Shown here: one piece after another, positions 2,727-59,360 of the stretch | Numbering within the stretch: the stretch's first letter is position 1 | Layout: every line of letters begins with the position of its first letter | Assembly (NCBI RefSeq): GCF_039654945.1 | Contig: NW_027361775.1 | Span: forward strand, 12,400,001 to 12,464,000 | Direction of reading: 5' to 3' | DNA: 64,000 nucleotides | Source: Dendrobates tinctorius | Taxonomy: Eukaryota | Notes under the pieces: model-generated | Seen by the model: the letters and a program-made list of their open reading frames with translations, nothing else | The model's database searches: none | What the model was told of the DNA's origin: nothing | Position numbers and translations under genes: made by a program

Positions 2727-4170
2727 AGTGTTTTTTTCTATCACCAGCTTGTGGATTTAAATTATTTGATACCTATGGAATACATTTTGAAGATTTTATT
2801 TATTTTTTTTGTGGACCGACTTTATTTTTCCCCATAGAATAACATTGGGCCAAGTGCGATCTGATGCTTTGCCTGATTGCACTCAGACAGATAATATGGT
2901 TGCCTGTGCAAACCCTAAGGGTTGCCAAGCTAATATATGCTTTAAATCAAGGATAGTATGGCATCGGATGCCAAATTAAAGCAATTAGTGAAAAAATATC
3001 AAAATTTGGTGCAAGGTTTTTTTGGGAACTATAAAATGAAAAACGGGATGTGTGCGTCTGCCATGCTGAAAATTTACTCTAATGTATAGTAGAAGTATGG
3101 CATAAGTTGCCATTAGAGCATGGTCAGTCCAAAGATGTGTCACATTTGCATCACCATACTCCAGCAGGCTTTTGCTTGAAAAGGCAGTCTTGAGAGATTA
3201 TTATGTTTCAGTAGCCTTTTTTCTGATTTTTTTTAGCTGACAGACAACGTGACATGAGTTTGCATCTGACAAACATCTGGCGCCTTATGATCATTAAGAT
3301 GCACAGGCTGTTACACAATGTTAGTGAATGAGTTTATTTGTTGCACCAGGTATTAGCTTAGACCAAAGCTCATGAAGATGAATTGTAAAATAGCTAAATT
3401 TTGTAAATCTATTTAACTATTTAATAAAAATCTAGCTTGGACAGACTTCTTGGCAATCAGACAATATGTAAGTCAAATGCATGCGATAAACTCACAACAG
3501 TATCTTCGCAGCCTTATTATCCCAATGGCTTTATGTAAAAACACTTCTAATGCATTTACTTAATTGTTGAAATTAAAGTAAACTGCACTAACATGATAAT
3601 AACACACATTATCCATTATGTATTCCGCTATTTTTTTCTTTACAAACTCTTTAAGGCAGACAATATCAAGCCATCGAGAGGTTAAGTCTCAAAATAGAAA
3701 TTGTGAAGAGACGATGCTGGTAACACTTCCAGCCTACACAATGATTCATTCCACTGTTTATACTGATTAGTGCTTCATCTAAACTGCATTCAGAATTCAG
3801 ACCTTTTTTGTATGGGCACAGAGTAGTATTTTGACTGTATATGTAGAAATCTCTTCCTAACTAGCCTTTGTGTAGACAGTGACACTATACTGTAAACACT
3901 GTCATTGTATTGTTCCCAGCCTATATACAAGTATTATACATAAATTGTATGATGTACAATGGCTTAACATTAATTTAACAGATATTTATCTGAACATTAA
4001 GTATTATGCCATATCAGGTGGTTAGCAATATTGCTTTTATGTGAAGTGTTGCATGTCTATCAATATATGGTGTCTCTGGTTTGACTTATATCCTTAGTCA
4101 TGTTTTAACACTAAAGTGGGTCAGAAATTGATTTGCAGTGTGGCCTATGCTCCTATAGATGGCACTAAAG

Positions 4171-42699: not shown

Positions 42700-45445
42700 C
42701 GTTATTCCAAAGGCTGCTCATTCCTCAGCCTGCTGCGCCCACAGCATCTCTAGAACCTAAGCAAGAAAACAATGTGGCGCTGGCTAGACAATAGCAGAAG
42801 ATCTGTCAAGTCATGGGTTTGTGCTTCTATTGTGAAGAAACCAGTCATGTCATTTGCTCCTGCTCAAAGAAGCTGGAAAACTTCCAAGCCCACAGCCAAT
42901 AGGACACACCACCCTTGGCAAGAGCAATTCCTGTTCATCATTGATCCTTACCATATCTGTGACTTGTGGAGGTTCCCAATTTGAGATAGCATACCCGAAT
43001 TCCTGCAGGGAATTTCATACAACAAGCAGTGGTAGAATGCTACCAGATCCACGTTCTACTACACAAAAATTCATTGCTGTGTCATATGTTTATGGGAAGC
43101 TTCTTTCCAAAGCCATTTGGCTTGTCACCGAGCAAGTAAAGCTCCAGATAGGAATGGTGCATGCTGAGAAGATTGTCTTCTACGTGCTTCCTAGCCTTTC
43201 TCATTCACGTCTTCTGGGATTTTTGTGGCTCCGCATGCATGAACCTGTCCTGGACTGGAGATCTTGAGAGGTGCCTCATTGGGGTCAGTCTTATTATGAG
43301 AAGCGTTTTTCATCTGTAAGACCAGTCCTGCCACTGATAGTACCATGTTCTCTGTTGGCATTAACATCTGCCTACTTTTCAAATGCGGACATCTTTGACA
43401 AAAAAGGAGCACAGATGTTACCTCCTCATAGGCTGTATGATTGTCTATAATCCTGATTCTGGGATCCTCACCTCCACGAGGCCATATTTACCCTCTGTCC
43501 CAGATAGAGACTCTAGCCTTGTCCCAGTATGTCAAGAAGAATTTGGCTAGGGGTTTCATTCAGAAATCTTCTTCTCCAGATGGAGCAGGCTTCATCTTTG
43601 CAAAGAAAAAGGATGGAACTCTCTGACCTAGCAAAAATTATAGGGATCTCAATCAGATGACAGTTATGAACTAATGTCCATTACCATTGATTAATTGATT
43701 TTGAAGCTGTTCAACCACCTCAAAGGTACTGAGATCTTTACCAAGCTGGATCTGCATAGATCATACAATCTAATGTGGATTGGTATGAATGGGTCACAGA
43801 GGAGGATGGCAGGAACAGGCTAAGCCATCAGAAAACCAGAAAGGTTGGTAACTAAGTGGATTGCAGATACCTGATCCTATCCACACAACTAGCAGTAGCT
43901 GTGGAGCATACCTACGATGCCCTAGATGCCTCGGCACAGCCAGAAAGCTAACTAGCTTAAGCAAGAAAGGTGAAATCTAAACTGCCCCGGAGCAGACCCC
44001 AAAAGGAATAGATAGCCCCCAAACATATATTGTCGGTGGGACAAGATGAAACACAAATGTAGGCAGGAAAATAGACTGAGCAAACAATGGGGCCCAAACT
44101 GACTAGACAGGACAGGAAAGGAAAGACACTGTCTGCAATCACGCAAAAACCCTTAAAAATCCAACACGTCTGATGTACAAAAAAACACTGAAGTCACACG
44201 ACTTTGCCCCCACTATATCAGCACTCCGGTATGAACTGGAAGCAAAGCAAAAGAGACTAATATAACAGGGGACTGAATAAACTGACACAGGCTGCAACAT
44301 ATGGAGCGGTGGTCCAGCACAGCCCCCAGAGGAGCAAGCGGAACCAGCACAACAAGCAGAGAGAGACAAAACCAGATCAGATGCAAGGGATTAGCAAATT
44401 AACCACTTAGCTGAACAATGCAGGATCAGGGCAGGAGACATCAGACCTCTGAATGCACAGGAAAGCAATCACCAGCAGGGAATGCAGGAAGTCTGCAGAC
44501 TTAAATACTCCAATCAGTAACCCCAGATCTCCAATCGTCATCATCATCACCATCAGGTGGCAGACCTCTGTCAATCTGGCCAGCTCCACTACCTCCAGTA
44601 ACCACCGGAGGGAGCAGGGGGAGCTTCGGCTAAGAAACCTGAGCCAAGGAATTCACAACAGTGGACACGTTGAGCAGATGAATGGAAGACTGCTTTCAAC
44701 AACTGGAACACTCATTATGAATACTAAGTTATGTCGTTCGGTCTCAGTAGCGCCCCAGCTGTATTCAAAGAATAAGTGAATGACATCTTTCGAGATATCC
44801 TCTACACTTGTGTTGTGGTTTACCTGGACAATATCTTTGTCTTTGCTTCAGATCTGCACTCTCATTGGCAAAGCATTCGCCAAATCCTACAGCGAATCAG
44901 AGAGAATTATCTGTGTGCTAAATTTGAGAAATGTGTGTTTTTATGCTCTCCCTTTCCTTGGATATATCATCTCAGACACAGGCCTGGAGATGGATCCAGA
45001 GAAGGTGTCTTCCATCCTTGAGTGGCCTTGTCCAGATGGCGTTAAAGCTATTCAGCAATTCCTTGAATTTGCCAACTACTACCAGGAATTCATTCCACAT
45101 TTCTCGTCCTGGACGATGCTCATCTCGACTATGATCCATAATCGTGCTGATCCAAAGGCTGGAAGCGCTTCTCTGTCCCTGAAACAAGCCTTTTCCTCCA
45201 CTTCAGTATTGCATCAACCAGAAGTGAGCACACAATTATTTCTGGAAGTAGACACTTCACCTTATGGGGCTAGAGCGGTTCTTACCCAGGAGTCTCAATC
45301 CAGTCATATGGTGACCTAGGGTTTTTTTTTCCAATGTCTTCTTTGCTCCAGAGTGCAACTACACAATTATTGGCAAAGAGTCATTAGCAATCAAGATAGC
45401 TCTAGAGGAGTGGCGTTACCTTCTCAAAGGAGTTGTCCACCTTGG
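42700..45445 (+). pseudogene. pol: Degenerate Gypsy (sushi-like) gag-pol internal fragment interrupted by a solo LTR
   Basis: Decayed zinc knuckle [45 protein letters not shown], RNase H LEVDTSPYGARAVL. Many stops and frameshifts. Confidence 0.85.
43781..44660 (-). mobile_element. Solo LTR (family A), 6-bp TSD GTGGAT/GTGGAC
   Basis: TGGTATGAA...TTCACAACA. Inserted in the RT YNLMWI motif of the old Gypsy. Confidence 0.85.
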
Positions 45446-46270: not shown

Positions 46271-47984
46271 GTAGTTACATATATTTTACGCTAGCCCTTT
46301 TTTTCTCATTTTATAAACTTACTTTTTGTATGGCACCATATCAAACGCCTTTGAAAAGTCCACATACAGTAGATTACATCCACTGCATTTCACTGGTCCA
46401 GTGTCAAACTTATCTTCTCATAGAAGCTAATATTACTCTCACAGTACCAATCTCTCATAAAACCATGTTTTTGCTTGGTATTAAAGCTATTCTTACTGAG
46501 ATATTCCAAGAAAGAATCTGTTAGAAAACAATCAAGGATTTTATCCACAATATCATTCAGATTATGTGAAAACTGTAAAGCGCTGTGGAATATGTTAGAG
46601 CTTTATTAAAATAAAGATTATTATTATTATTGTCATTGGCTAACTTCAAATGGGCTGCCATGAGCAGTGGGACCTTGCATGCCCTGCTGGATTTTAATCC
46701 ATGATGGCATAATTTCTTACTAACGGTACTGTTTTAGGCTGTGGTCGCAGCTCTCTACAGGTCATTGACCAGATCCTCCCATGTAATTTTGGACTGATTT
46801 CTGATGAGTAATGGGTGAACACATGGATGTTTGGGTCCGTCGAGTTCAGCCAGACAGTTAAAAGAAGTTCTGTTCAGGTACCAGAATAGTACCTGAAACC
46901 AATTCTGAACCCTGCCTCATTCAGATGAATGGGGTCCCAAACATCAATTGTTTGCCACACTGTCATTGCCTGCGCCTGTTGTCGCTGATGACAGCAAGAG
47001 TAGGTGGCTGCTGATGGGAGTATTCATCAGCCAGTGTCTGCACTATAGATAAATGAAAAAATAGCATGAATTCCCCTTTATTTTTGATAATCAGCATGGC
47101 AAAACTGTCCACTGCATGCTGCAAACCTCAGCTGTCTGCTTTATCATGGCTTGTTATGAAGAATAGAGAGGTTCCCATGCCATTTTTATAAATTATTTAA
47201 ATAAACAATTTAAAAAATGGCATAGAGGCCCCCATTTTTTACAGCCAGCCTAACTAAAGCAGACATCTGGGGGATGGTAGTCTCAGGCTGGTAAGGGGCC
47301 ATGAATATAGCCCACAGCCTATAAATAGTAGCTGACCCAGAAAAGGTGCATCTATTAGATGCATCTATTCTGGTGCTTTGCTCGGCTCTTCCCACCTGCC
47401 CTGTGGTGGCAAGTGGGGTTAATATTTATGGGGTTGATGTCACCTTTATATTGTCAAGTGACATCAAACGCAAGGATTAGAAATGGAGAGGCATCTATAA
47501 GACATTTCTACATTACTAACCCCATTGTCATATTGTAAATAAACACACAACAAAAATAAAGTCCTTTATTTTAAACAAAAATCCTCACCGTTTTACAAAT
47601 TTATTTAAAAATTTACACTCACCTTACTCCATTTCATTGAAGCACTCGTACCCTGTAAAACACATAAAATAATAAATATCAACAATGCTCACCTAACGCC
47701 CATTCCTTTAAAACCCGGGTCTCCTGTAAAATAAAAAAAGACAAAAAATAACCATTTCCCTCACAAGTCCGACACTGTCTCATCCCATAATCCATGCCTG
47801 CAATAAATGGTTTTCGACCCGGACAGTGCCAATATGTGACCGTCAAGGCTAAAAACCACATCAGAATGAGCTGCTGAGAGCACTTTTCTGCTAGTTATTT
47901 AAAGTATAGAAAAATAAACCATTATACTTACTAGGTCAGTGCATAGAAGACATGGGGCCCCATAGCAGAAGTATTATGAACTAC

Positions 47985-48508
47985 CCATAGTCCTTATAGT
48001 GTAATGCATCTCATAGTCCTACATATAATATACTCTACAGTACAGCCCATAGTTCCCCATATAGTATGCTGCACAGCACATTGTCCTCCATATAGTACAC
48101 GCACCTAGCTACATATTAGTATAATACATAGCTGATATTATTCATATGGTATAATACACAGCCCATAGTCCTCCATATAGTATAATGCACCACCATGTTA
48201 GTATAATACACAGCCCATATCCTCCATACAGTATACTTCCCAGCCCATAGTCCTCAATAGTATAATACACAGCCCATATCCTTCATATAGTATAATGAAA
48301 AGCTCATATCCTTCATATAGCATAATGCACTGCTCAAAGTCATCCATAAAATATAATACATAGCCCACAGTCCTCCATAAAGTATAATGCACAGTTCATA
48401 GTCCTTCATATCATGTAATACACAGCTCATAGTCATCCATAAAGTCTAATGCACCTCACAATCATCTATAAAATATAATGGACAGTCTATAGTCATCCAT
48501 AAAGTATA
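47985..48508. repeat. ~30-31-bp AT-rich minisatellite, resuming at 54027-54110
   Basis: Unit ~ATAATACACAGCCCATAGTCCTCCATATAGT. Array is split by the LTR element. Confidence 0.85.
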
Positions 48509-49140
48509 TGTCATGATCCCAGTGCAGGTTTTTGAGCTGCACACCGGGGGTTAATGTCTGGAGCTCTGTGCAGGTTTTGACCTGCACACTTGGGGTTAAT
48601 GATTGTGGCCTCTTTCTGGTTCTGGGAGAGCTTCATAAACCCCTGGGTAGCTTCAATCCCTGCCAGTTATACTTTTGCCTTTGGCCGAGTGTACTGACCC
48701 CCGTGTGCCTGTTTGTTGCTATAGCCTGTTTATATGGTTCTGACCCGATTCTGTTTCCCGTTGTGAGTTTGCCTGTTGATTTTGTACTGCGTTATTATCT
48801 GTGTATGACCCATTGCCTGTGACCTGATTACTCTCTGCTCGCCCCTCTTGTACCTTGCAGCTATCTGTGTGTGACTCATTGGCTACGTCCTGACTATTCT
48901 CACTGTCTATGCCCCTTGGTAACTTTGTCTCGCAGTTACTCTGCTAGGAATTGTCTTGCAGCTCCTAGCTCTGTGGAGTTTAGGCCACGCCTCTAGCAGT
49001 CACGTGCTTCAGGTCCTGCGGGTGTGAAGTACACATCTACTCGGTTGCTGCTCGCTCCACAGGTAGCTTTGAGAACTGTTCGCTTTACTCAGGACACGCG
49101 CACTGGCTCAGTGAGCAAGTTCAGTGCGGTGTCTCTGACA
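48509..49140 (+). repeat. 5' LTR
   Basis: TGTCATGATCC...TCTCTGACA. TATA-like CATAAA at 48634-48639. Confidence 0.97.
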
Positions 49141-49141
49141 T

Positions 49142-49151
49142 TATAACTGGC
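49142..49151 (+). promoter_or_regulatory. Self-priming primer-binding site
   Basis: TATAACTGGC is the exact reverse complement of LTR 48662-48671 GCCAGTTATA. No tRNA-type TGG immediately after the LTR. Confidence 0.8.
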
Positions 49152-49185
49152 CTACAATTTTTTTTTCTCTCCTCACTTCTGCAGC

Positions 49186-50073
49186 ATGGACCCAATGTGT
49201 GCTTTATCTGAGCAGGTGAAAAGCTTGACTCAGTCACTGCAGAAGCTTAGTTTGGAACACCAAGCTCTGGCCCAGTCCCAACGGCGGGTTGAGGACTCAG
49301 TTCAGGGGGTGCTTTCCACAGGCTTCCAGCAGGTGGGGAATAGAGGTGTCATTTTAGTCCCACCTGAATTCCCGGTTAAATTGCCAGATATATTTTCTGG
49401 TAACAAGGATGATTTCAGGGCATTTAAGGAGGGCTGTAAGCTTTTTTTTTCTTTGAGTCCCCGCTCCTCTGGGGATGAGAAACAGAGGGTGGTGATGTCC
49501 CTGCTTAGGGGGTCCCCACAAGCCTGGGCATTCTCACTTTCCTCTTCTGCCCCTGATAGAATGTCTGTGGATGCATTTTTTGAAGCCTTAGGGCTTATCT
49601 ATGATGAGCCTGATAGAGTGCGGTTGGCTGAGGACAAAGTAATGAGTGTCTGTCAGGGGGAGCACTCGGCCAAATGGTTCTGTACTGAATTCAGACGTTG
49701 GGCAGCGGAGATTTCCTGGAGTGATGCCGCCCTTCGGGGGCTGTTCCACAGAGGCCTGTGTGAACGTCTGAAGGATGCTTTGGCACTCCATCCTCCGCCT
49801 GACTCCCTGGAGGATGCCATGGTCCAAGCGGTTCGCATGGATCGCAGGCTGCGGGCTAGAGGCATTATGCAACGGGAATCGCCCTTATTCTTCAGTGGAG
49901 ATGAGACCCAGACTCTTCCTATGGCTATGGAGGTGAGCGCTGTCACCTGTGAGGGAAAGGAAAGAAGACGCCGCCGGGAAAAGCAGTTGTGCTTCTATTG
50001 TGGGAAATCTGGACATTGGAAGAAGGACTGCCCCTCCTGTCCGTCATCTTCCAAGATGGCGGGAAATGACTAG
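49186..50073 (+). CDS. gag: Gag (PEG10/sushi-like capsid plus CCHC zinc knuckle), open 295 aa
   Basis: Coiled-coil N-terminus, LPDIFSG..F...C capsid motif, CFYCGKSGHWKKDC knuckle. Confidence 0.93.
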   Translation: MDPMCALSEQVKSLTQSLQKLSLEHQALAQSQRRVEDSVQGVLSTGFQQVGNRGVILVPPEFPVKLPDIFSGNKDDFRAFKEGCKLFFSLSPRSSGDEKQRVVMSLLRGSPQAWAFSLSSSAPDRMSVDAFFEALGLIYDEPDRVRLAEDKVMSVCQGEHSAKWFCTEFRRWAAEISWSDAALRGLFHRGLCERLKDALALHPPPDSLEDAMVQAVRMDRRLRARGIMQRESPLFFSGDETQTLPMAMEVSAVTCEGKERRRRREKQLCFYCGKSGHWKKDCPSCPSSSKMAGND

Positions 50074-50125
50074 GTCTGGGTAGTAATCGAGGAGGATACC
50101 CAGACCTTCAGGTACAATTTTCCTC
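50061..50125 (+). promoter_or_regulatory. -1 ribosomal frameshift signal (slippery heptamer plus H-type pseudoknot)
   Basis: G GGA AAT at 50061-50067. Stem 1 AGGTCTGGGTA 50072-50082 / TACCCAGACCT 50097-50107. Stem 2 GAGGAGGA 50089-50096 / TTTTCCTC 50118-50125. pol is in the -1 frame. Confidence 0.8.
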
Positions 50126-53100
50126 ATGTGCAAAGATGGTGCTGCAGGTGGAACTGGAACTTGGTTATGGTCCTGTTCAGACTACTGCTTTTATTGACTG
50201 CGGTTCGGCTGTGAACCTGATTGATAACAAGGTTATGACTCTTAATAAGATAGGGACAGTCAGGCTTCATGATCCTGTTAAACTTGTGGCAATTGACTCA
50301 TCTCCTCTTACCCAAGATGGTATCTGTTGCAGGTCTGAACTTTTTTCTCTAAAAGTGGGTTCCACTCATGTGGAGAAACTAACTTGTCTGGTGCTAGATA
50401 ATTTGCCTGCAGGACTGGTACTGGGGATGCCTTGGCTTCAACGCCATAATCCTACCATTGATCGGGTTACAGGGGAAATCACTCAATGGGGATGCAATAA
50501 TAAATGTGGTAACCGGGGACATCTTGTTAACGCTGTTAAATCCGTGTCTGTGTCGTCTGTCGATCTGGAAGGGTACCTGAAAGATTTCGAAGACGTTTTT
50601 TCCGAAAGTGAGGCTGAGGCGCTGCCACCACATAGACCCTATGATTGTGCCATTGATTTAGTACCCGGAGCCAAGTTACCTAAGACTCGATTGTTCAATT
50701 TGTCTGGGCCTGAGCGCCAAGCCATGAAGGAGTACATAGCTGAGAGTCTCCGCAAAGGGCATATCAGGCCTTCTGTGTCACCTGTGGCAGCAGGGTTCTT
50801 CTTTGTGAAGAAAAAAGATGGTGGTTTGCGGCCGTGCCTCGACTTTCGGGAACTGAACAAGATAACGGTTAGGAACTCTTACCCGCTTCCCCTCATCCCA
50901 GACTTATGTAACCAGTTAGCTGGGGCCCAATGGTTCTCCAAGTTAGATCTGTGGGGGGCCTACAATCTGATAAGGGTTCGGGAAGGGGACAAGTGGAAAA
51001 CGGCATTCCTCACATCAGAAGGACTCTTTGAGAACCTGGTAATGCCATTTGGGTTAACTAATGCACCCGCTATTTTCCAAAATTTCATCAATATTGTGTT
51101 TTCTGATCTGATAGGCCGTTTTGCTATTATTTATTTGGATGACATTTTGGTGTATTCCGCGGACAGTCAATCTCACTTGCAACATCTAAAGACCGTTCTC
51201 CAGAGACTCGGAGAACCAATTTTTCGCCAAATTGGAAAAATGTTCGTTTTTTGTACAGGAGCTGTCTTTTTTGGGGTTGATTGTGTCCTGTGAGGGGTTT
51301 CGTATGGATCCTAAGAAGGTGCTGGCGATCGCTGACTGGGTTCAGCCTCGAGATCTCAAGGGGCTTCAGCGCTTCTTAGGATTTGCGAACTATTACCGGA
51401 GATTCATTAAAGGTTTCTCACAAGTGGTGAAACCACTCACGGATCTTACCCAGAAGGGAGCTGATGTAAAAAATTGGTCTGTACTCACTAAGGAATCCTT
51501 CTCAGCGATTAAGAAATGTTTTATGTCTGCCCCGGTGTTGGTGCAACCTTACCCGTCCAAACCATTCATTGTGGAGGTGGATGCTTCTGAAGTGGGGGTG
51601 GGGGCTGTGCTGTCCCAGGGTCCGGCCACCCTTACCAATCTCAAACCCTGTGCCTTCTTCTCCAAGAAGTTCTCTTCAGCTGAGAAAAACTATGATGTAG
51701 GCAATAGAGAACTTCTTGCGGTCAAGCTGGTGTTTGAGGAATGGAGGCACTTTTTGGAAGGGGCGGCTCACCCTATCACGGTTGTCACGGATCGCAAAAA
51801 TTTGGCATACCTTGAATCTGCTAAGAGGCTTACTCCTAGACAGGCCCGTTGGTCACTTTTTTTTTCACGATTTCAGTTCTCAATTACTTTTCGACCGGAG
51901 TCCAAAAATGTTAAAGCGGATGCCCTGTCCAGAAGTTTTGATCCAGTGTCTCCCCCTGAGCCGCCGTCCTCCATTCTTCCCCAAGGGGTGGTAGTGGCGG
52001 GGGTCTCAACTGAGTTGGAACAAGAAATCCTAAGGGCTCAAGCCCTAGCTCCGGCAACCAAGCCAAGCAATAAACTGTTTGTTCCAGATTCATTGCGGCC
52101 TAGACTTCTGAAGGAGTTTCATGATTCTAGGCTGAGTGCTCATCCAGGTATCACGGCCACTAGAGAGGCAGTAGCCAGGGGTTTTTGGTGGCCTTCATTA
52201 AGGTCCGATGTCAAGGAATTTGTTTCTGCTTGTGACATATGTGCCCGTTCCAAAAGCTCGCATAACCGACCGGCTGGGGAACTCATACCTTTACCGGTTC
52301 CTGATAGGCCATGGACTCATCTTTCCATGGATTTTATTACCGGCCTTCCACCTTCCAGGGGCAATACCATGATCTGGGTGGTGGTGGATAGGTTTTCTAA
52401 ACAGGCCCATTTCATTCCCTTGGCAGCATTACCTTTAGCAGAAACGTTGTCAAGATTGTTTGTGCAGCATGTGGTCCAATTGCATGAGGATACCCCTGAA
52501 TGTTGTGTCTGACAGAGGTGTGCAGTTTGTGGCCAAATTTTGGAGGGCGTTCTGTATGAAATTGGGCATCTCACTCTCCTTCTCATCGGCATATCACCCG
52601 GAGAGTAATGGTCAGACAGAACGCACCAATCAATCCCTGGAACAAATTCTCAGGTGTTTGACCTCCGCCAGACAGGAGGATTGGTGTGATGCGTTACCGT
52701 TGGCTGAATTCGCTTTTAACAACCGGGTGAGTCAGTCCACCAACATGTCCCCATTCCTGATTAACTATGGCTTTAATCCGCATTTTGGGGAGTTTTCTCG
52801 GGTGGATTCCGGTTGTCCAGGAGCAGAAGAGTCCGTTCAATGGTTAAAAAACCTCTGGGCTGAAGTCCGGCGTAATATCTCTCGGGCCCAGGGGAGATAC
52901 AAATATTTTGCAGACAAAAAGAGAGCCTCGGGAGACATGTTTCAGGTGGGAGAGAAGGTTTGGCTCTCCACGCGTAACATCAACTTAAAGGTACCATCAG
53001 GTAAGTTGGGACCAAAGTTCATTGGTCCGTACGAGATTATGGAGATAGTCAACCCTGTGGCCTATAGGTTGCGTCTCCCCGCCTCCTTAAAAATATCTAA

Positions 53101-53383
53101 TGTGTTCCATAAGTCTCTGTTGAAACCAGCAGGATCTGTCAAAGAGAACTCTGAGACTGTTGTTCCTCCAGTGCTGGTGGAGGGTCAATTGGAGTATGAG
53201 GTCAGACATATTGTGGACTCTCGGCGGGTGCGCCGCTCTTTGCAGTACCTAGTCCACTGGAAAGGATATGGACCAGAAGAGCGCTCATGGGTCCCTGCTC
53301 GCTTGGTACATGCAGATCTTCTGGTTCAGGCATTCCATGCCAAGTACCCGGGGAAGCCTGGGGGTCCAGAGGCCCCCCGTTGA
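50070..53383 (+). pseudogene. pol: Pol (protease, RT, RNase H, integrase, chromodomain) with two frameshifts
   Basis: AFIDCGS, YLDDILVYS, VEVDASEVGVGAVL, HHCC plus SMDFIT/VSDRG/QTER, GPY, chromodomain EYEVRHIVDSR..YLVHWKGYGPEERSWVP. Frameshifts at ~51210 and ~52487. Confidence 0.95.
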
Positions 53384-53394
53384 GAGGGGGGTAC

Positions 53395-54026
53395 TGTCAT
53401 GATCCCAGTGCAGGTTTTTGAGCTGCACACCGGGGGTTAATGTCTGGAGCTCTGTGCAGGTTTTGACCTGCACACTTGGGGTTAATGATTGTGGCCTCTT
53501 TCTGGTTCTGGGAGAGCTTCATAAACCCCTGGGTAGCTTCAATCCCTGCCAGTTATACTTTTGCCTTTGGCCGAGTGTACTGACCCCCGTGTGCCTGTTT
53601 GTTGCTATAGCCTGTTTATATGGTTCTGACCCGATTCTGTTTCCCGTTGTGAGTTTGCCTGTTGATTTTGTACTGCGTTATTATCTGTGTATGACCCATT
53701 GCCTGTGACCTGATTACTCTCTGCTCGCCCCTCTTGTACCTTGCAGCTATCTGTGTGTGACTCATTGGCTACGTCCTGACTATTCTCACTGTCTAAGCCC
53801 CTTGGTAACTTTGTCTCGCAGTTACTCTGCTAGGAATTGTCTTGCAGCTCCTAGCTCTGTGGAGTTTAGGCCACGCCTCTAGCAGTCACGTGCTTCAGGT
53901 CCTGCGGGTGTGAAGTACACATCTACTCGGTTGCTGCCCGCTCCACAGGTAGCTTTGAGCACTGTTCGCTTTACTCAGGACACGCGCACTGGCTCAGTGA
54001 ACAAGTTCAGTGCGGTGTCTCTGACA
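53395..54026 (+). repeat. 3' LTR
   Basis: Near-identical to the 5' LTR and preceded by the polypurine tract GAGAGGGGGG. Confidence 0.97.
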
Positions 54027-55661
54027 GTATAATGCATCTTATAGTCATCCATATAATTTATCACACAGCCCATAGATATCCATAAAGTATAATTCACAGC
54101 CCTTAGTAATATAGTAGTATGTTGACCATGTACTCGCTAATTAAAAAAAATAAATACTCATCTTCCCTCTGCTGCCCTGCTGTGGCATCCTCTTCTGAAG
54201 CTGGCAACTGACTTCAATGTGCAAGCAATATGAATGCATGACGTCACTACTATGGGTGGCGGTCACATGCACACCAGCGTCAGCTGTTGGCCACTGGCCA
54301 GCAGTTTGCATTGCCGCACATGTACCAGATGACTATGTACTTGGTAATACATGTCAACTGGATGTGCATCCCAGGACACACATCCACTTGAAGCTTCTGC
54401 TGGCGTCGGTGGGCCACCACCCACACGGGCCAGGTCATGACCTCTGATACCACGGATGGTATTAAGCCCCTGTATTTAGCTCCATTTATTATTTGTAATC
54501 ATTGTACACAGAATTTAAAACCAAATGTTTGCAACTTCAAAAAAATGAGAGAGCCACCATCATTCGTATAAAAAATGTATAATGCTGTGTCAGAAAATTA
54601 TGAAACATTGTAATTATATGTATTACAGCAAATACAAAAAATGCAGCATAGGATGTAGATTGGAGGTATCTAAATTGATTCAATGTTTAGATTTAAATCC
54701 CTTTGTTCTAGCTGCTGTTAACCTTACTGTGATGAGAACTTTCACTGATCAACATGTCTTGAGACCTTTCAGTGAAATCTTACCCCAGAGGCTCCTTATA
54801 AGCAGGCAGACCTCTAATATACACAAGAGCTTAGAGCTATTAGTCATACAAGTGGTAAGCATAACTTATTCTGGAACAGCCTGTCATAATGACATAATGA
54901 CAAAATAAACCCCACAAAGAAACAAATTGCTTATTTTAGTGGTTATAAGTAGCTGGTAGTTCAAAGAGCTGAATAAATGCTAAATTTAGTTCTAAGTGAG
55001 GATATCATTTAGGATACATGCTCCAAATAATGTTTTCTAAATTATGTTCTCACTTAGAATAAATTTTGACAAAAATACTCTCATCAAAATGATCATATTC
55101 ACATGCGAGAAACTCGGATGCTCCAATCCGAGTACCTGCGGCAGTGCCGATTATTGACGTGCGAGACTCGTCTGAGTTTTTTGCATGTGAGTATGAACCC
55201 AAAGGAGTTTTTCTAGGCTGAGAAGCAAAGATTGTATGCGCTCTGTGTGACTGCAGACATTATGCATGCGGCAAATGATACTACTGTATTTTGCGGTTTC
55301 CATACCCCTCTACCATTATTTCTCTAATATAGCAATGTATAATAATTGTGAGAAGGAGGTCCTGATATATCTACATTTGGCTGTAATATCTTGTGCTTAT
55401 GTTTCATTATAACCTATGGAATGGATTATCCATATTTTGGTTTTCTCTAAGCCATGCACATAATAACGTTTTCTCTAAACTTGTGATTGGTTTAAACCAT
55501 ATGTTGTTCTCTGTATGTATGATTCATTTTGGGTTACTTGTTACCCAGTTTAGCTTCTTTGTCTGATCGAATATATTATCATGTTGACTAGGTGCATGAA
55601 ACCAGTTATTTAACATAAACTAATTCTGTATTTTATTTTTTGTCTTACTGTTTGTATCTAC

Positions 55662-56883: not shown

Positions 56884-57796
56884 TGCTATGATTGGGTCAC
56901 CGAGGAGGAAAACAAAGCCAACCTAAGTAACAGAATACCAGAGAGGTTGGTAACTACATGGATTGCAGACCCCTGATCCTAACCACACAACAAACAGCAG
57001 CCGTGGAGCGTACCTACGATGATTCTAGATGCCTCGTCACAGCCAGAGGACTAAATAAGCCTAAAGCAAGAAAAGGGGAAATCTAAACTGCCTCAGAGCA
57101 GACCCCAAAGGAATAGACAGCCCCCACACATTTATTGACTGTGAAACAAGATGAAAGCACAAACACAGGTAGGAAAATAGGCTGAGCAAACAATGGGGCC
57201 CACACTAACTAGAAAGGACAGGAAAGGAAAGATACTGTCTGCAATCACACCAAAAAACCTTGCAAAAAATGTCCAACACTTCTGATAGCAAAAAAAACCC
57301 TGAAGTCACTAGACTTCACCTACTGTATCAGCACTCTGGCATATTCTAGGAACAGAGCAAAAAGAGGCCAATCTAATAAGGGACAAAAAGCAAACTGGCA
57401 CATACAGTAACATAAGAGTGGAAATTCAGCACAGCCCCAGCCGGGGCTGGCTGACCACACAAAAACTGAATAGACAAAACCAAATCAAATGTGAACATTA
57501 GCAGAGAAAACTTAGCTTGAGAAGAAAGGATCTGAGCTGGAAACCAAGAACTCAGGAGGCAGGAAAAAATCACCAGCATGGGAATAGGGAGTCGGCTGTC
57601 TTAAATCCAGTCTGAGTCTCCAGATGTCCAATTGTCATCCTCATTATCAGGTGGCAGGTTTCTGTTAATTAGATCAGCTTCATTTCCTCTTGCCACCACC
57701 AGAGGGAGCCCGGAAAGAGAACTCACGACTCCTTTGTCAGCACAAACAGTTCCCTCACCAGAAACCAGAGGCAGACCAGAAAATGAGTTCACAACA
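56884..57796 (-). mobile_element. Solo LTR (family A), 6-bp TSD GCATGG
   Basis: TGCTATGA...TTCACAACA. TSD at 56878-56883 and 57797-57802. Confidence 0.87.
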
Positions 57797-58149: not shown

Positions 58150-59360
58150 ACATCCCCCACTGTAAAATATGGCCTTTTTTTAAAAAAAAAGCAGCAGAGT
58201 GCTATATATAACTGAAGTAACAGACAGGAAAACACTGGAATACTGGCTTAAAATCCCCAAATTTTCATCACACGGACATATGAGGTGTGTTACAGATATA
58301 CCACACTGTAATTTTTTTTTATTGGATGCAAAAGAGTGCTAGATATAACGAGAGTGACAGACCGACAATAAAAAGGAATTTAGGCCAAAAATGCCTCAAT
58401 TTTGGAGACACGGATGTATGAGGCGTGTCACAGATATACCACACTGTAATTTTTTTTTATTGGATGCAAAAGAGTGCTGGATATAACGAGAGTGACAGAC
58501 CGACAAAAAAAAGGAATTTAGGCCAAAAATGCCTCAGTTTTGGAGACACGGATTTATGAGGCGTGTCACAGATATACCCCACTGTAAAATGTGGGCTGTT
58601 TTTTTAAAATAATGCAACATAGTTCTGTATCTAAGTCCAGTGACAAACAGCACCAAAAAAGAAAACAGCCGTAAACTGGCTAAACGTTGAGCACATATAG
58701 ATATGTGCTGTAACGCAGACAACACTACTACAAATGTATTTTTTATTTTTATAACTTTTTTTTTGCTAAAAACTGCTGTATATAATTCCAACGACAACCA
58801 GGACCAAAAATGACAACCGGCCTAAACTGGCCAAACTTTGATCATGCACAGATATGAGCTGCACGAAGAAACCACTATGACATTTTTTTATTTTTTTATT
58901 TTTTTGGGGGATAAATACTGCTGTATATAAGTCCAGTGACACCCCGGACAAAAAAAAAAGAAAACAGCCATAAACTGGCCAAACTTTAAGCACACACAGA
59001 TATGAGCTAGCATGCAGATACCACACCGAAGAATGTGTGGCCTGTATTTTTTTAATTTTTTGGCTAAATACTGCTGTATATAAGTCCAGTGACACCCCGG
59101 ACCAAAAAAGAAAACAGCCGTTAACTGGCCAAACTTTTAGCACACACAGATATGAGCTGACATGCAGATACCACAACGAAAAATGTGTGGCCTTTTTTTA
59201 ATTTTTTGGCTAAATAGTGCTCTATATAAGTACAGTGCAAGACAGCAAAAAAATGAATCTAGGGCTAAAAAGACAAAAATGTTAGCAGACGGTTGGATGA
59301 GGCATGTCACAAATATACCACACTGTAAAATATGTGGCCTGTCTGTATTTTTGGGGGGCT
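58150..59360. repeat. 138-bp tandem repeat grading into diverged ~150-bp units, probably inside a non-autonomous DNA element extending to ~60860
   Basis: CAGATATACC anchors at 58293, 58431, 58569. Related units continue to ~59340. CCGAGTA subterminal-like motifs at ~60800-60860. Confidence 0.7.

What the first reader, a model, noticed from the sequence alone, without database searches (positions are those of the whole stretch)
48634..49151. tRNA-independent self-priming signature in a young vertebrate chromovirus
Seen: the 10 nt at the PBS position (TATAACTGGC, 49142-49151) are not a tRNA 3'-end complement. They pair perfectly with GCCAGTTATA (48662-48671), which starts 28 nt after the start of a TATA-like CATAAA, the expected transcription start. 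Established: fission-yeast Tf1 primes reverse transcription with the 5' end of its own mRNA, and this has been proposed for vertebrate sushi-group elements. Inference: this element's mRNA loops ~480 nt to prime itself, so a near-intact copy offers a tractable vertebrate test case.
Basis: partly seen in the sequence, partly recalled or inferred. Interest (0 to 1): 0.7.

Follow-up and report, generated by a model that had tools for sequence, protein, structure and literature searches.

The report
Self-priming frog chromovirus, a known kind
A young jumping gene in a probable frog genome has no tRNA docking site; the ten bases there pair exactly with the predicted first ten bases of its own RNA, and related families keep this pairing with different letters, so the lineage likely starts copying itself with its own RNA, a trick already shown in yeast Tf1 and already proposed in print for vertebrate sushi-type elements.

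Summary
49142-49151 is the exact reverse complement of 48662-48671 (10 bp; 15 of 20,000 LTR shuffles do as well). The element (48509-54026) is a young Ty3/gypsy chromovirus: LTRs differ at 4 of 632 bases, 5-bp target duplication, pol broken in three places. Its own family is invariant at the pair. Other families give the real test: 23 of 25 LTR-verified elements picked by protein domain, not by PBS, pair their own, different PBS with their own LTR over 10-11 nt; foreign combinations match in 1 of 312. Over 19 primer types, an A/T peak lies at -30 to -26 and the primer starts at pyrimidine|G, which indirectly supports the predicted start site. No start site could be mapped. Self-priming is shown for Tf1 and proposed for vertebrate Tf1/sushi elements since 2001, and this scan noted it before in ray, shark-like and moss genomes. 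New here: broad compensatory covariation, a near-fixed C just past the PBS (3,202 vs 41 places), and no predicted leader-side duplex. Verdict: new member of a known kind.

The parts
48504..48508 (+). 5-bp target-site duplication, left copy (GTATA)
   Evidence: right copy at 54027-54031
48509..49140 (+). 5' LTR, 632 bp, TG...CA
   Evidence: 4 differences from the 3' LTR
48632..48639 (+). weak TATA-like word (CATAAA from 48634), -28 from the primer; inferred promoter
   Evidence: A/T peak at -30 to -26 in 19 primer types; CTTAAA in 8 of 21 sisters
48662..48671 (+). predicted self-primer = predicted first 10 nt of the transcript, preceded by a pyrimidine
   Evidence: start site not mapped
49089..49138 (+). 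predicted U5-terminal hairpin directly upstream of the PBS
   Evidence: helix probabilities 0.88-0.94; z -3.4; 461 of 464 pair cells still pair in 29 sisters, changes mostly to G-U
49142..49151 (+). primer-binding site, complementary to 48662-48671, not to a tRNA end
49152..49152 (+). near-invariant C just past the PBS; would face the cap guanosine of the annealed 5' end (inference)
   Evidence: 24 of 24; 3,202 vs 41 genome-wide in the window's clade
49153..49185 (+). pyrimidine-rich leader ending in CAG before the gag ATG (splice-acceptor-like, no joint seen)
   Evidence: searches show no joint
49186..50073 (+). gag (capsid, CCHC zinc knuckle), open
   Evidence: best PDB hit PEG10, E 2e-5
50061..50069 (+). 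-1 slippery-type heptamer at the gag-pol junction, followed in this copy by a stop in the pol frame
50070..53383 (+). pol (PR, RT, RNase H, IN, SH3, chromodomain) in three frames; frame changes within 51190-51293 and 52439-52512
53382..53391 (+). polypurine tract, 3 nt before the 3' LTR
53395..54026 (+). 3' LTR, 632 bp

Best explanation
This Ty3/gypsy chromovirus has a 10-base primer site that pairs exactly with a stretch of its own left repeat, and it likely primes reverse transcription as yeast Tf1 does: the RNA is predicted to start at G48662, its first ten bases would fold back about 480 bases onto the primer site, and the element's RNase H would cut them free to give the end that is extended. 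Shown: the pairing, its covariation across families, the domain content and the conserved promoter-like spacing. Inferred: the start site, the cut, priming, and cis rather than trans supply of the primer. This copy cannot do it alone, as its pol is broken; the signature was inherited from the active parent.
For: Exact 10-bp pair at the PBS position, 15 of 20,000 shuffles. Chromovirus domains with SH3_Tf2-1 and chromodomain; nearest proteins are frog and fish gypsy elements. Primer and PBS differ from the window at 1 of 580 cells in 29 sisters, against 519 of 18,328 LTR-wide. 23 of 25 domain-picked, LTR-verified elements have a 10-11 nt own-LTR complement. 12 of 13 PBS types match their own LTR, 1 of 312 foreign combinations, permutation maximum 8. 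In two large sister families 23 of 30 copies are perfect and 0 of 30 hold a foreign primer. A/T at -30 to -26 in 16-19 of 19 primer types, pyrimidine at -1 in 19 of 19. The duplex is favoured (mean P 0.8 or more) in 14 of 18 folded leaders. The group is described as self-priming.
Against: No direct start-site or cDNA evidence. In the window the predicted duplex depends on the folded span: P 0.4-0.65 for 48662-49188, 0 when extended to 49500 or started at 48509; 4 of 18 leaders fold with mean P under 0.4. Among 54 older, pattern-picked loci only 9 are perfect and 26 reach 9 of 10; CpG decay explains up to 15 of the imperfect ones, the rest I attribute to decay or truncated LTRs without having checked each. 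The leader-side duplex of the Tf1 'pretzel' is not predicted here (longest complement 6 nt, within the foreign background). The TATA-like word is weak and variable. 15 of 40 domain-picked loci were dropped for lack of a clean LTR pair.
Confidence: 0.8

Rival explanations
1. Self-priming in trans: the ten-base primer is the same sequence but comes from another molecule, either the co-packaged partner RNA or short capped transcripts from the many LTR copies, so no 480-base loop forms.
For: The sequence signature is identical. The family has 3,468 first-look candidates for the LTR-leader query. The cis duplex is unstable to the folded span and lacks a leader-side helper duplex.
Against: The cis fold is favoured in 14 of 18 leaders. 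Tf1 and Tf2 are described as looping in cis (passages).
Confidence: 0.12
2. The duplex is structural, not a primer: it controls gag translation, packaging, or end-to-end pairing through the 3' R copy, while a host tRNA fragment or other small RNA primes.
For: In one large clade the PBS end abuts the gag ATG, so pairing would cover the start context. The window leader has three upstream ATGs.
Against: At least 19 different PBS sequences each match their own LTR, which one host RNA cannot serve. The duplex always ends 1-2 nt from the LTR end, where priming must start. The primer word occurs before a T-loop motif at only 10 places in the genome and none is a tRNA gene.
Confidence: 0.06
3. Chance complementarity in one copy.
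For: Ten bases is short.
Against: 15 of 20,000 shuffles; own 24 of 26 vs foreign 1 of 312; fixed spacing to an A/T peak.
Confidence: 0.01

Closest known systems
Vertebrate Tf1/sushi-group chromoviruses (GyDB V-clade: sushi-ichi, Amn-ichi/ni/san), Butler et al. 2001 (not read; cited in 10.1101/2022.12.06.519325, PMC6317226, PMC4600332)
   Same: Chromodomain integrase, CCHC gag, -1 gag-pol phase, TGTYANR...CNTNACA-like LTR ends (PMC3601003), PBS complementary to the LTR instead of a tRNA.
   Different: A different family; no named sushi or Amn sequence was compared directly. No canonical AATAAA in this LTR, whereas the Sushi LTR model has one.
Tf1/Tf2 of Schizosaccharomyces pombe (self-priming shown by experiment), Tj1, Tosmo1-3
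   Same: PBS right after the 5' LTR pairs with the predicted RNA 5' end; a U5-side duplex next to the PBS is predicted.
   Different: 10-bp duplex with a 1-nt spacer. The leader-side third duplex is not predicted. Gag has CCHC and pol is in the -1 frame, unlike Tf1. A near-fixed C follows the PBS.
Plant Tcn1-clade chromoviruses (PMC6317226)
   Same: Predicted self-priming by the same criterion: 10 nt or more of LTR complement starting 0-5 nt after the LTR.
   Different: Moss and club-moss hosts.
PEG10 / Mart-SIRH domesticated genes
   Same: Gag capsid similarity (7lga, E 2e-5).
   Different: Host genes derived from sushi-ichi-like elements, not mobile; priming signals not compared.

Membership tests
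Ty3/gypsy chromovirus | Order gag, PR, RT, RNase H, IN with a C-terminal chromodomain | tested here: met
   RVT_1, RT_RNaseH, Integrase_H2C2, rve (below cut-off), SH3_Tf2-1, Chromo E 5e-11; best RT structure hit Ty3
Ty3/gypsy chromovirus | TG...CA LTRs, 5-bp target duplication, polypurine tract | tested here: met
Tf1/sushi group | No tRNA PBS (no TGG within 5 nt of the LTR) | tested here: met
   the first TGG is 8 nt out and is not kept in other clades
Tf1/sushi group | No match to a host tRNA fragment | tested here: inconclusive
   exact primer word before a T-loop motif: 10 places, 0 of 10 tRNA genes; the full host tRNA set was not obtained (8 of 30 loci scanned, all tRNA-Lys)
Tf1/sushi group | PBS complementary over 10 nt or more to the 5' LTR | tested here: met
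Tf1/sushi group | The complement is the 5' end of the RNA | tested here: inconclusive
   indirect only: spacing and Y|G; contigs give no start
Tf1/sushi group | CCHC gag and -1 gag-pol phase (non-fission-yeast members) | tested here: met
   frameshifting itself not testable
Tf1/sushi group | RT-IN tree placement with sushi-ichi and Tf1 | not tested
   no named reference sequence was on hand from a tool; nearest proteins are frog and fish chromodomain gypsy elements and PEG10
Tf1-type priming mechanism | U5-side duplex next to the PBS | tested here: met
   predicted hairpin 49089-49138; family-specific, z below -3 in only 4 of 18 leaders
Tf1-type priming mechanism | Leader-side duplex completing the three-duplex 'pretzel' | tested here: not met
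   window: longest complement 6 nt, -8.7 kcal/mol; present in some other families (11 nt in 2 of 17)
Tf1-type priming mechanism | RNase H cleavage releases the primer | not testable with these tools
   needs biochemistry

The most novel reading that the evidence does not exclude
Vertebrate chromoviruses use a distinct version of self-priming: the duplex always starts at the +1 G, and the near-fixed C just past the PBS reads the cap guanosine, replacing the leader-side helper duplex that Tf1 needs; in this family splicing to the CAG before gag could also drop the PBS and separate message from genome.
Probability: 0.15. Interest if true: 0.6.

Novelty: new member of a known kind. Interest (0 to 1): 0.33.

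Why it matters
Self-priming has been shown by experiment in fission yeast; my searches found no vertebrate test (most subscription journals, and Butler 2001, are not in the library). This genome holds at least 19 primer/PBS types that covary and more than 3,200 PBS-bearing copies in one clade, so the prediction is now sharp: capped 5' ends at Y|GC about 30 nt after an A/T word, and a 10-11 nt RNA tag on minus-strand cDNA. Both can be read from host tissue RNA. Elements primed this way would not depend on a tRNA and would lack the site through which 3' tRNA fragments silence mammalian LTR elements (PMC7472051; the extension to frogs is my inference). This window's copy is not special: its pol is broken and the mechanism is an expected trait of the group.

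Tried and rejected
Start-site mapping: no RNA holder listed on record. Eight contig sets were laid. Lower depth over U3 appears in the guessed-RNA runs and also in the runs of unknown kind, so it was not used; no splice joint to 49185/49186 was listed. A 'fixed G-U wobble' family was rejected: the dominant PBS in those families has the Watson-Crick partner, and the G-U copies are rare CpG-decay forms that my TGGCC pattern had selected (4-5 in the first 100 of 2,479 listed). A conserved duplex between the bases after the primer and the LTR end was rejected (own mean -5.9 vs foreign -6.5 kcal/mol). A general leader:LTR duplex was not above background. A tRNA PBS starting at the TGG 8 nt out was rejected (other clades read AGG or GCG there and the following bases vary). 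The gag tree (22 of 25 rows; 3 had no gag hit) was used only for sister pairs; L136 and L048 are misplaced, probably because their best hit comes from a neighbouring element, and were left out. Five primary papers were not held. No supplements were opened.

Full report
Observation. The ten bases 49142-49151, one base after the CA that ends the 5' LTR, are the exact reverse complement of 48662-48671, and the duplex does not extend on either side. Only 15 of 20,000 dinucleotide shuffles of the LTR hold a 10-base complement of any stretch starting 0-3 bases after the LTR. CATAAA starts 28 bases before the primer site.

The element. It spans 48509-54026, with 632-bp LTRs that differ at 4 places, a GTATA target duplication and a polypurine tract. 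Pfam finds gag, CCHC, protease, RT, RNase H, integrase, SH3_Tf2-1 and a chromodomain, in Ty3/gypsy order. The nearest proteins are gypsy elements of frogs and bony fish, up to 65% identical; gag's best solved relative is PEG10 and RT's is Ty3. Gag is open. Pol lies in the -1 frame, begins with a stop right after the slippery-type heptamer, and changes frame twice more. The copy is young but not self-sufficient.

Own family. In the 30 best matches (the window's copy included; 30 of 40 scored, 3,468 candidates) the primer site is identical in 30 and the PBS intact in 29. The 20 paired bases differ from the window at 1 of 580 cells, against 2.8% over the whole LTR. This shows constraint but no covariation. 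The TATA-like word varies: 8 of 21 further copies with a found primer site read CTTAAA.

Other families, picked without regard to the PBS. I took 20 of 150 SH3_Tf2-1 hits and 20 of 150 gag hits, chosen for spread of score and long frames. 25 of the 40 had an LTR pair ending in ACA; 15 were dropped. Of the 25, 23 have a perfect 10-11 base complement of their own PBS in at least one LTR; one has 9 and one has a single G-U. With the window there are 13 PBS types: own matches 24 of 26, foreign matches 1 of 312, 12 of 13 types on the diagonal, and at most 8 in 100,000 permutations. Eight of the ten PBS columns vary. Gag identity to the window falls to about 26-30% in these families.

Closer families, picked by a pattern that fixed the ends of the PBS but not its middle. 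Of 54 loci, 9 are perfect and 26 reach 9 of 10, against 2 and 44 of 1,181 foreign combinations. This set is older and noisier. Fifteen loci belong to two families whose usual PBS my pattern had excluded; their dominant form pairs perfectly (23 of 30 perfect, 6 at 9 of 10, 1 at 8 of 10, none with a foreign primer). On the gag tree seven disjoint pairs of related rows (L038/L046, L208/L213, window/L167, L166/L170, L042/L032, L139/L041, L143/L148) differ at 13 PBS places in all, each matched in the primer. Some forks are weak, two misplaced rows were left out, and the pattern-picked rows were chosen among perfect copies, so this illustrates rather than adds to the test. Copying of the primer into the PBS during plus-strand synthesis, described for retroviruses (PMC7472051, passages) and consistent with Tf1 cDNA ends (PMC11042837, passages), could itself make such covariation; that too would imply priming.

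Is the primer site the RNA start? Only indirect evidence. Aligned on the primer, 19 primer types show A or T at -30 to -26 in 18, 18, 16, 19 and 19 cases and a pyrimidine at -1 in all 19; the types are related, so these are not 19 independent events. That is the layout of a TATA box and an initiator (established knowledge, recalled). Public runs were contigs only and gave no start or splice joint.

Structure. Folding 48662-49188 gives the primer:PBS helix in the lowest-energy structure, with pair probabilities 0.38-0.65; they rise to 0.98 if the span ends at 49160 and fall to 0 if it runs to 49500 or starts at the LTR's first base. In 14 of 18 family leaders the helix has mean probability 0.8 or more. 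A hairpin at 49089-49138 abuts the PBS and keeps pairing in 461 of 464 cells in 29 sisters. Tf1 needs three duplexes (10.1101/2022.12.06.519325, passages). The leader-side one is not predicted here, because the leader is almost all pyrimidines.

A further regularity. The base after the PBS is C in 24 of 24 matched elements, and the base before the primer is never G. In the window's clade, where the gag ATG is not adjacent, C follows at 3,202 places and another base at 41, scattered over families. This C has no genomic partner but would face the cap guanosine. That reading is speculative. In the clade where ATG follows directly, the same letters also form the start-codon context.

Mechanism. 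Shown: pairing, covariation, position. Inferred from Tf1 and Tf2 (passages in PMC4600332, and PMC5341516): transcription from G48662, fold-back, cleavage after base 10 by the RT's RNase H, extension across the spacer T into U5. I put this at 0.8, trans supply of the same primer at 0.12, and a structural-only role at 0.06.

What is known. Self-priming is given as the common feature of the Tf1/sushi group, vertebrates included, citing Butler et al. 2001 (passages). I could not read that paper or the primary Tf1 papers. PMC3601003 and PMC5006619 were seen as passages. Eight searches turned up no vertebrate experiment and no family-level covariation count, but the library misses most subscription journals. 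This scan has noted the same signature in ray, shark-like and moss genomes (not checked here).

Verdict. A real, well-supported self-priming signature in a new family of a group for which it is already proposed. Interest 0.33.

Noticed in passing
window 48734-49188: The leader has three short upstream ATG frames, a donor-like GTGAGT at 48763 and a pyrimidine tract plus CAG right before the gag ATG (CAG-CATG kept in 29 of 29 sisters). Splicing there would remove the PBS. No joint was listed in contigs, and most related families lack the acceptor.
   Followed up: partly
window 47971-48508 and 54027-54107: The element sits inside a degenerate ~31-bp tandem array.
   Followed up: no
window 44002-44615 vs 57107-57709; 44780-45319: Diverged direct repeats about 13.1 kb apart bracket the element, and a decayed RT/RNase H piece lies at 44780-45319; possibly an older element or duplication in which this one is nested.
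   Followed up: no
window 58176-59334: Tandem array of 138-153-bp units.
   Followed up: no
window 48509-49140: No AATAAA or common variant was found in the LTR; the 3' end of the RNA is undefined.
   Followed up: no
G000:C15:21893665-21904011 and G000:C142:23166812-23180307: Three chromovirus hits each at regular 5.1-kb and 6.7-kb spacing: possible head-to-tail tandem elements, as described for integrase-independent Tf1 insertion (PMC11042837).
   Followed up: no
L208-L237: Two much larger sister families (2,479 pattern matches together) differ at one PBS base and at the matching primer base.
   Followed up: yes
L101-L130 (G000:C99 9.0-9.6 Mb): Tandem tRNA-Lys(TTT) genes at about 1.4-kb spacing.
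   Followed up: no
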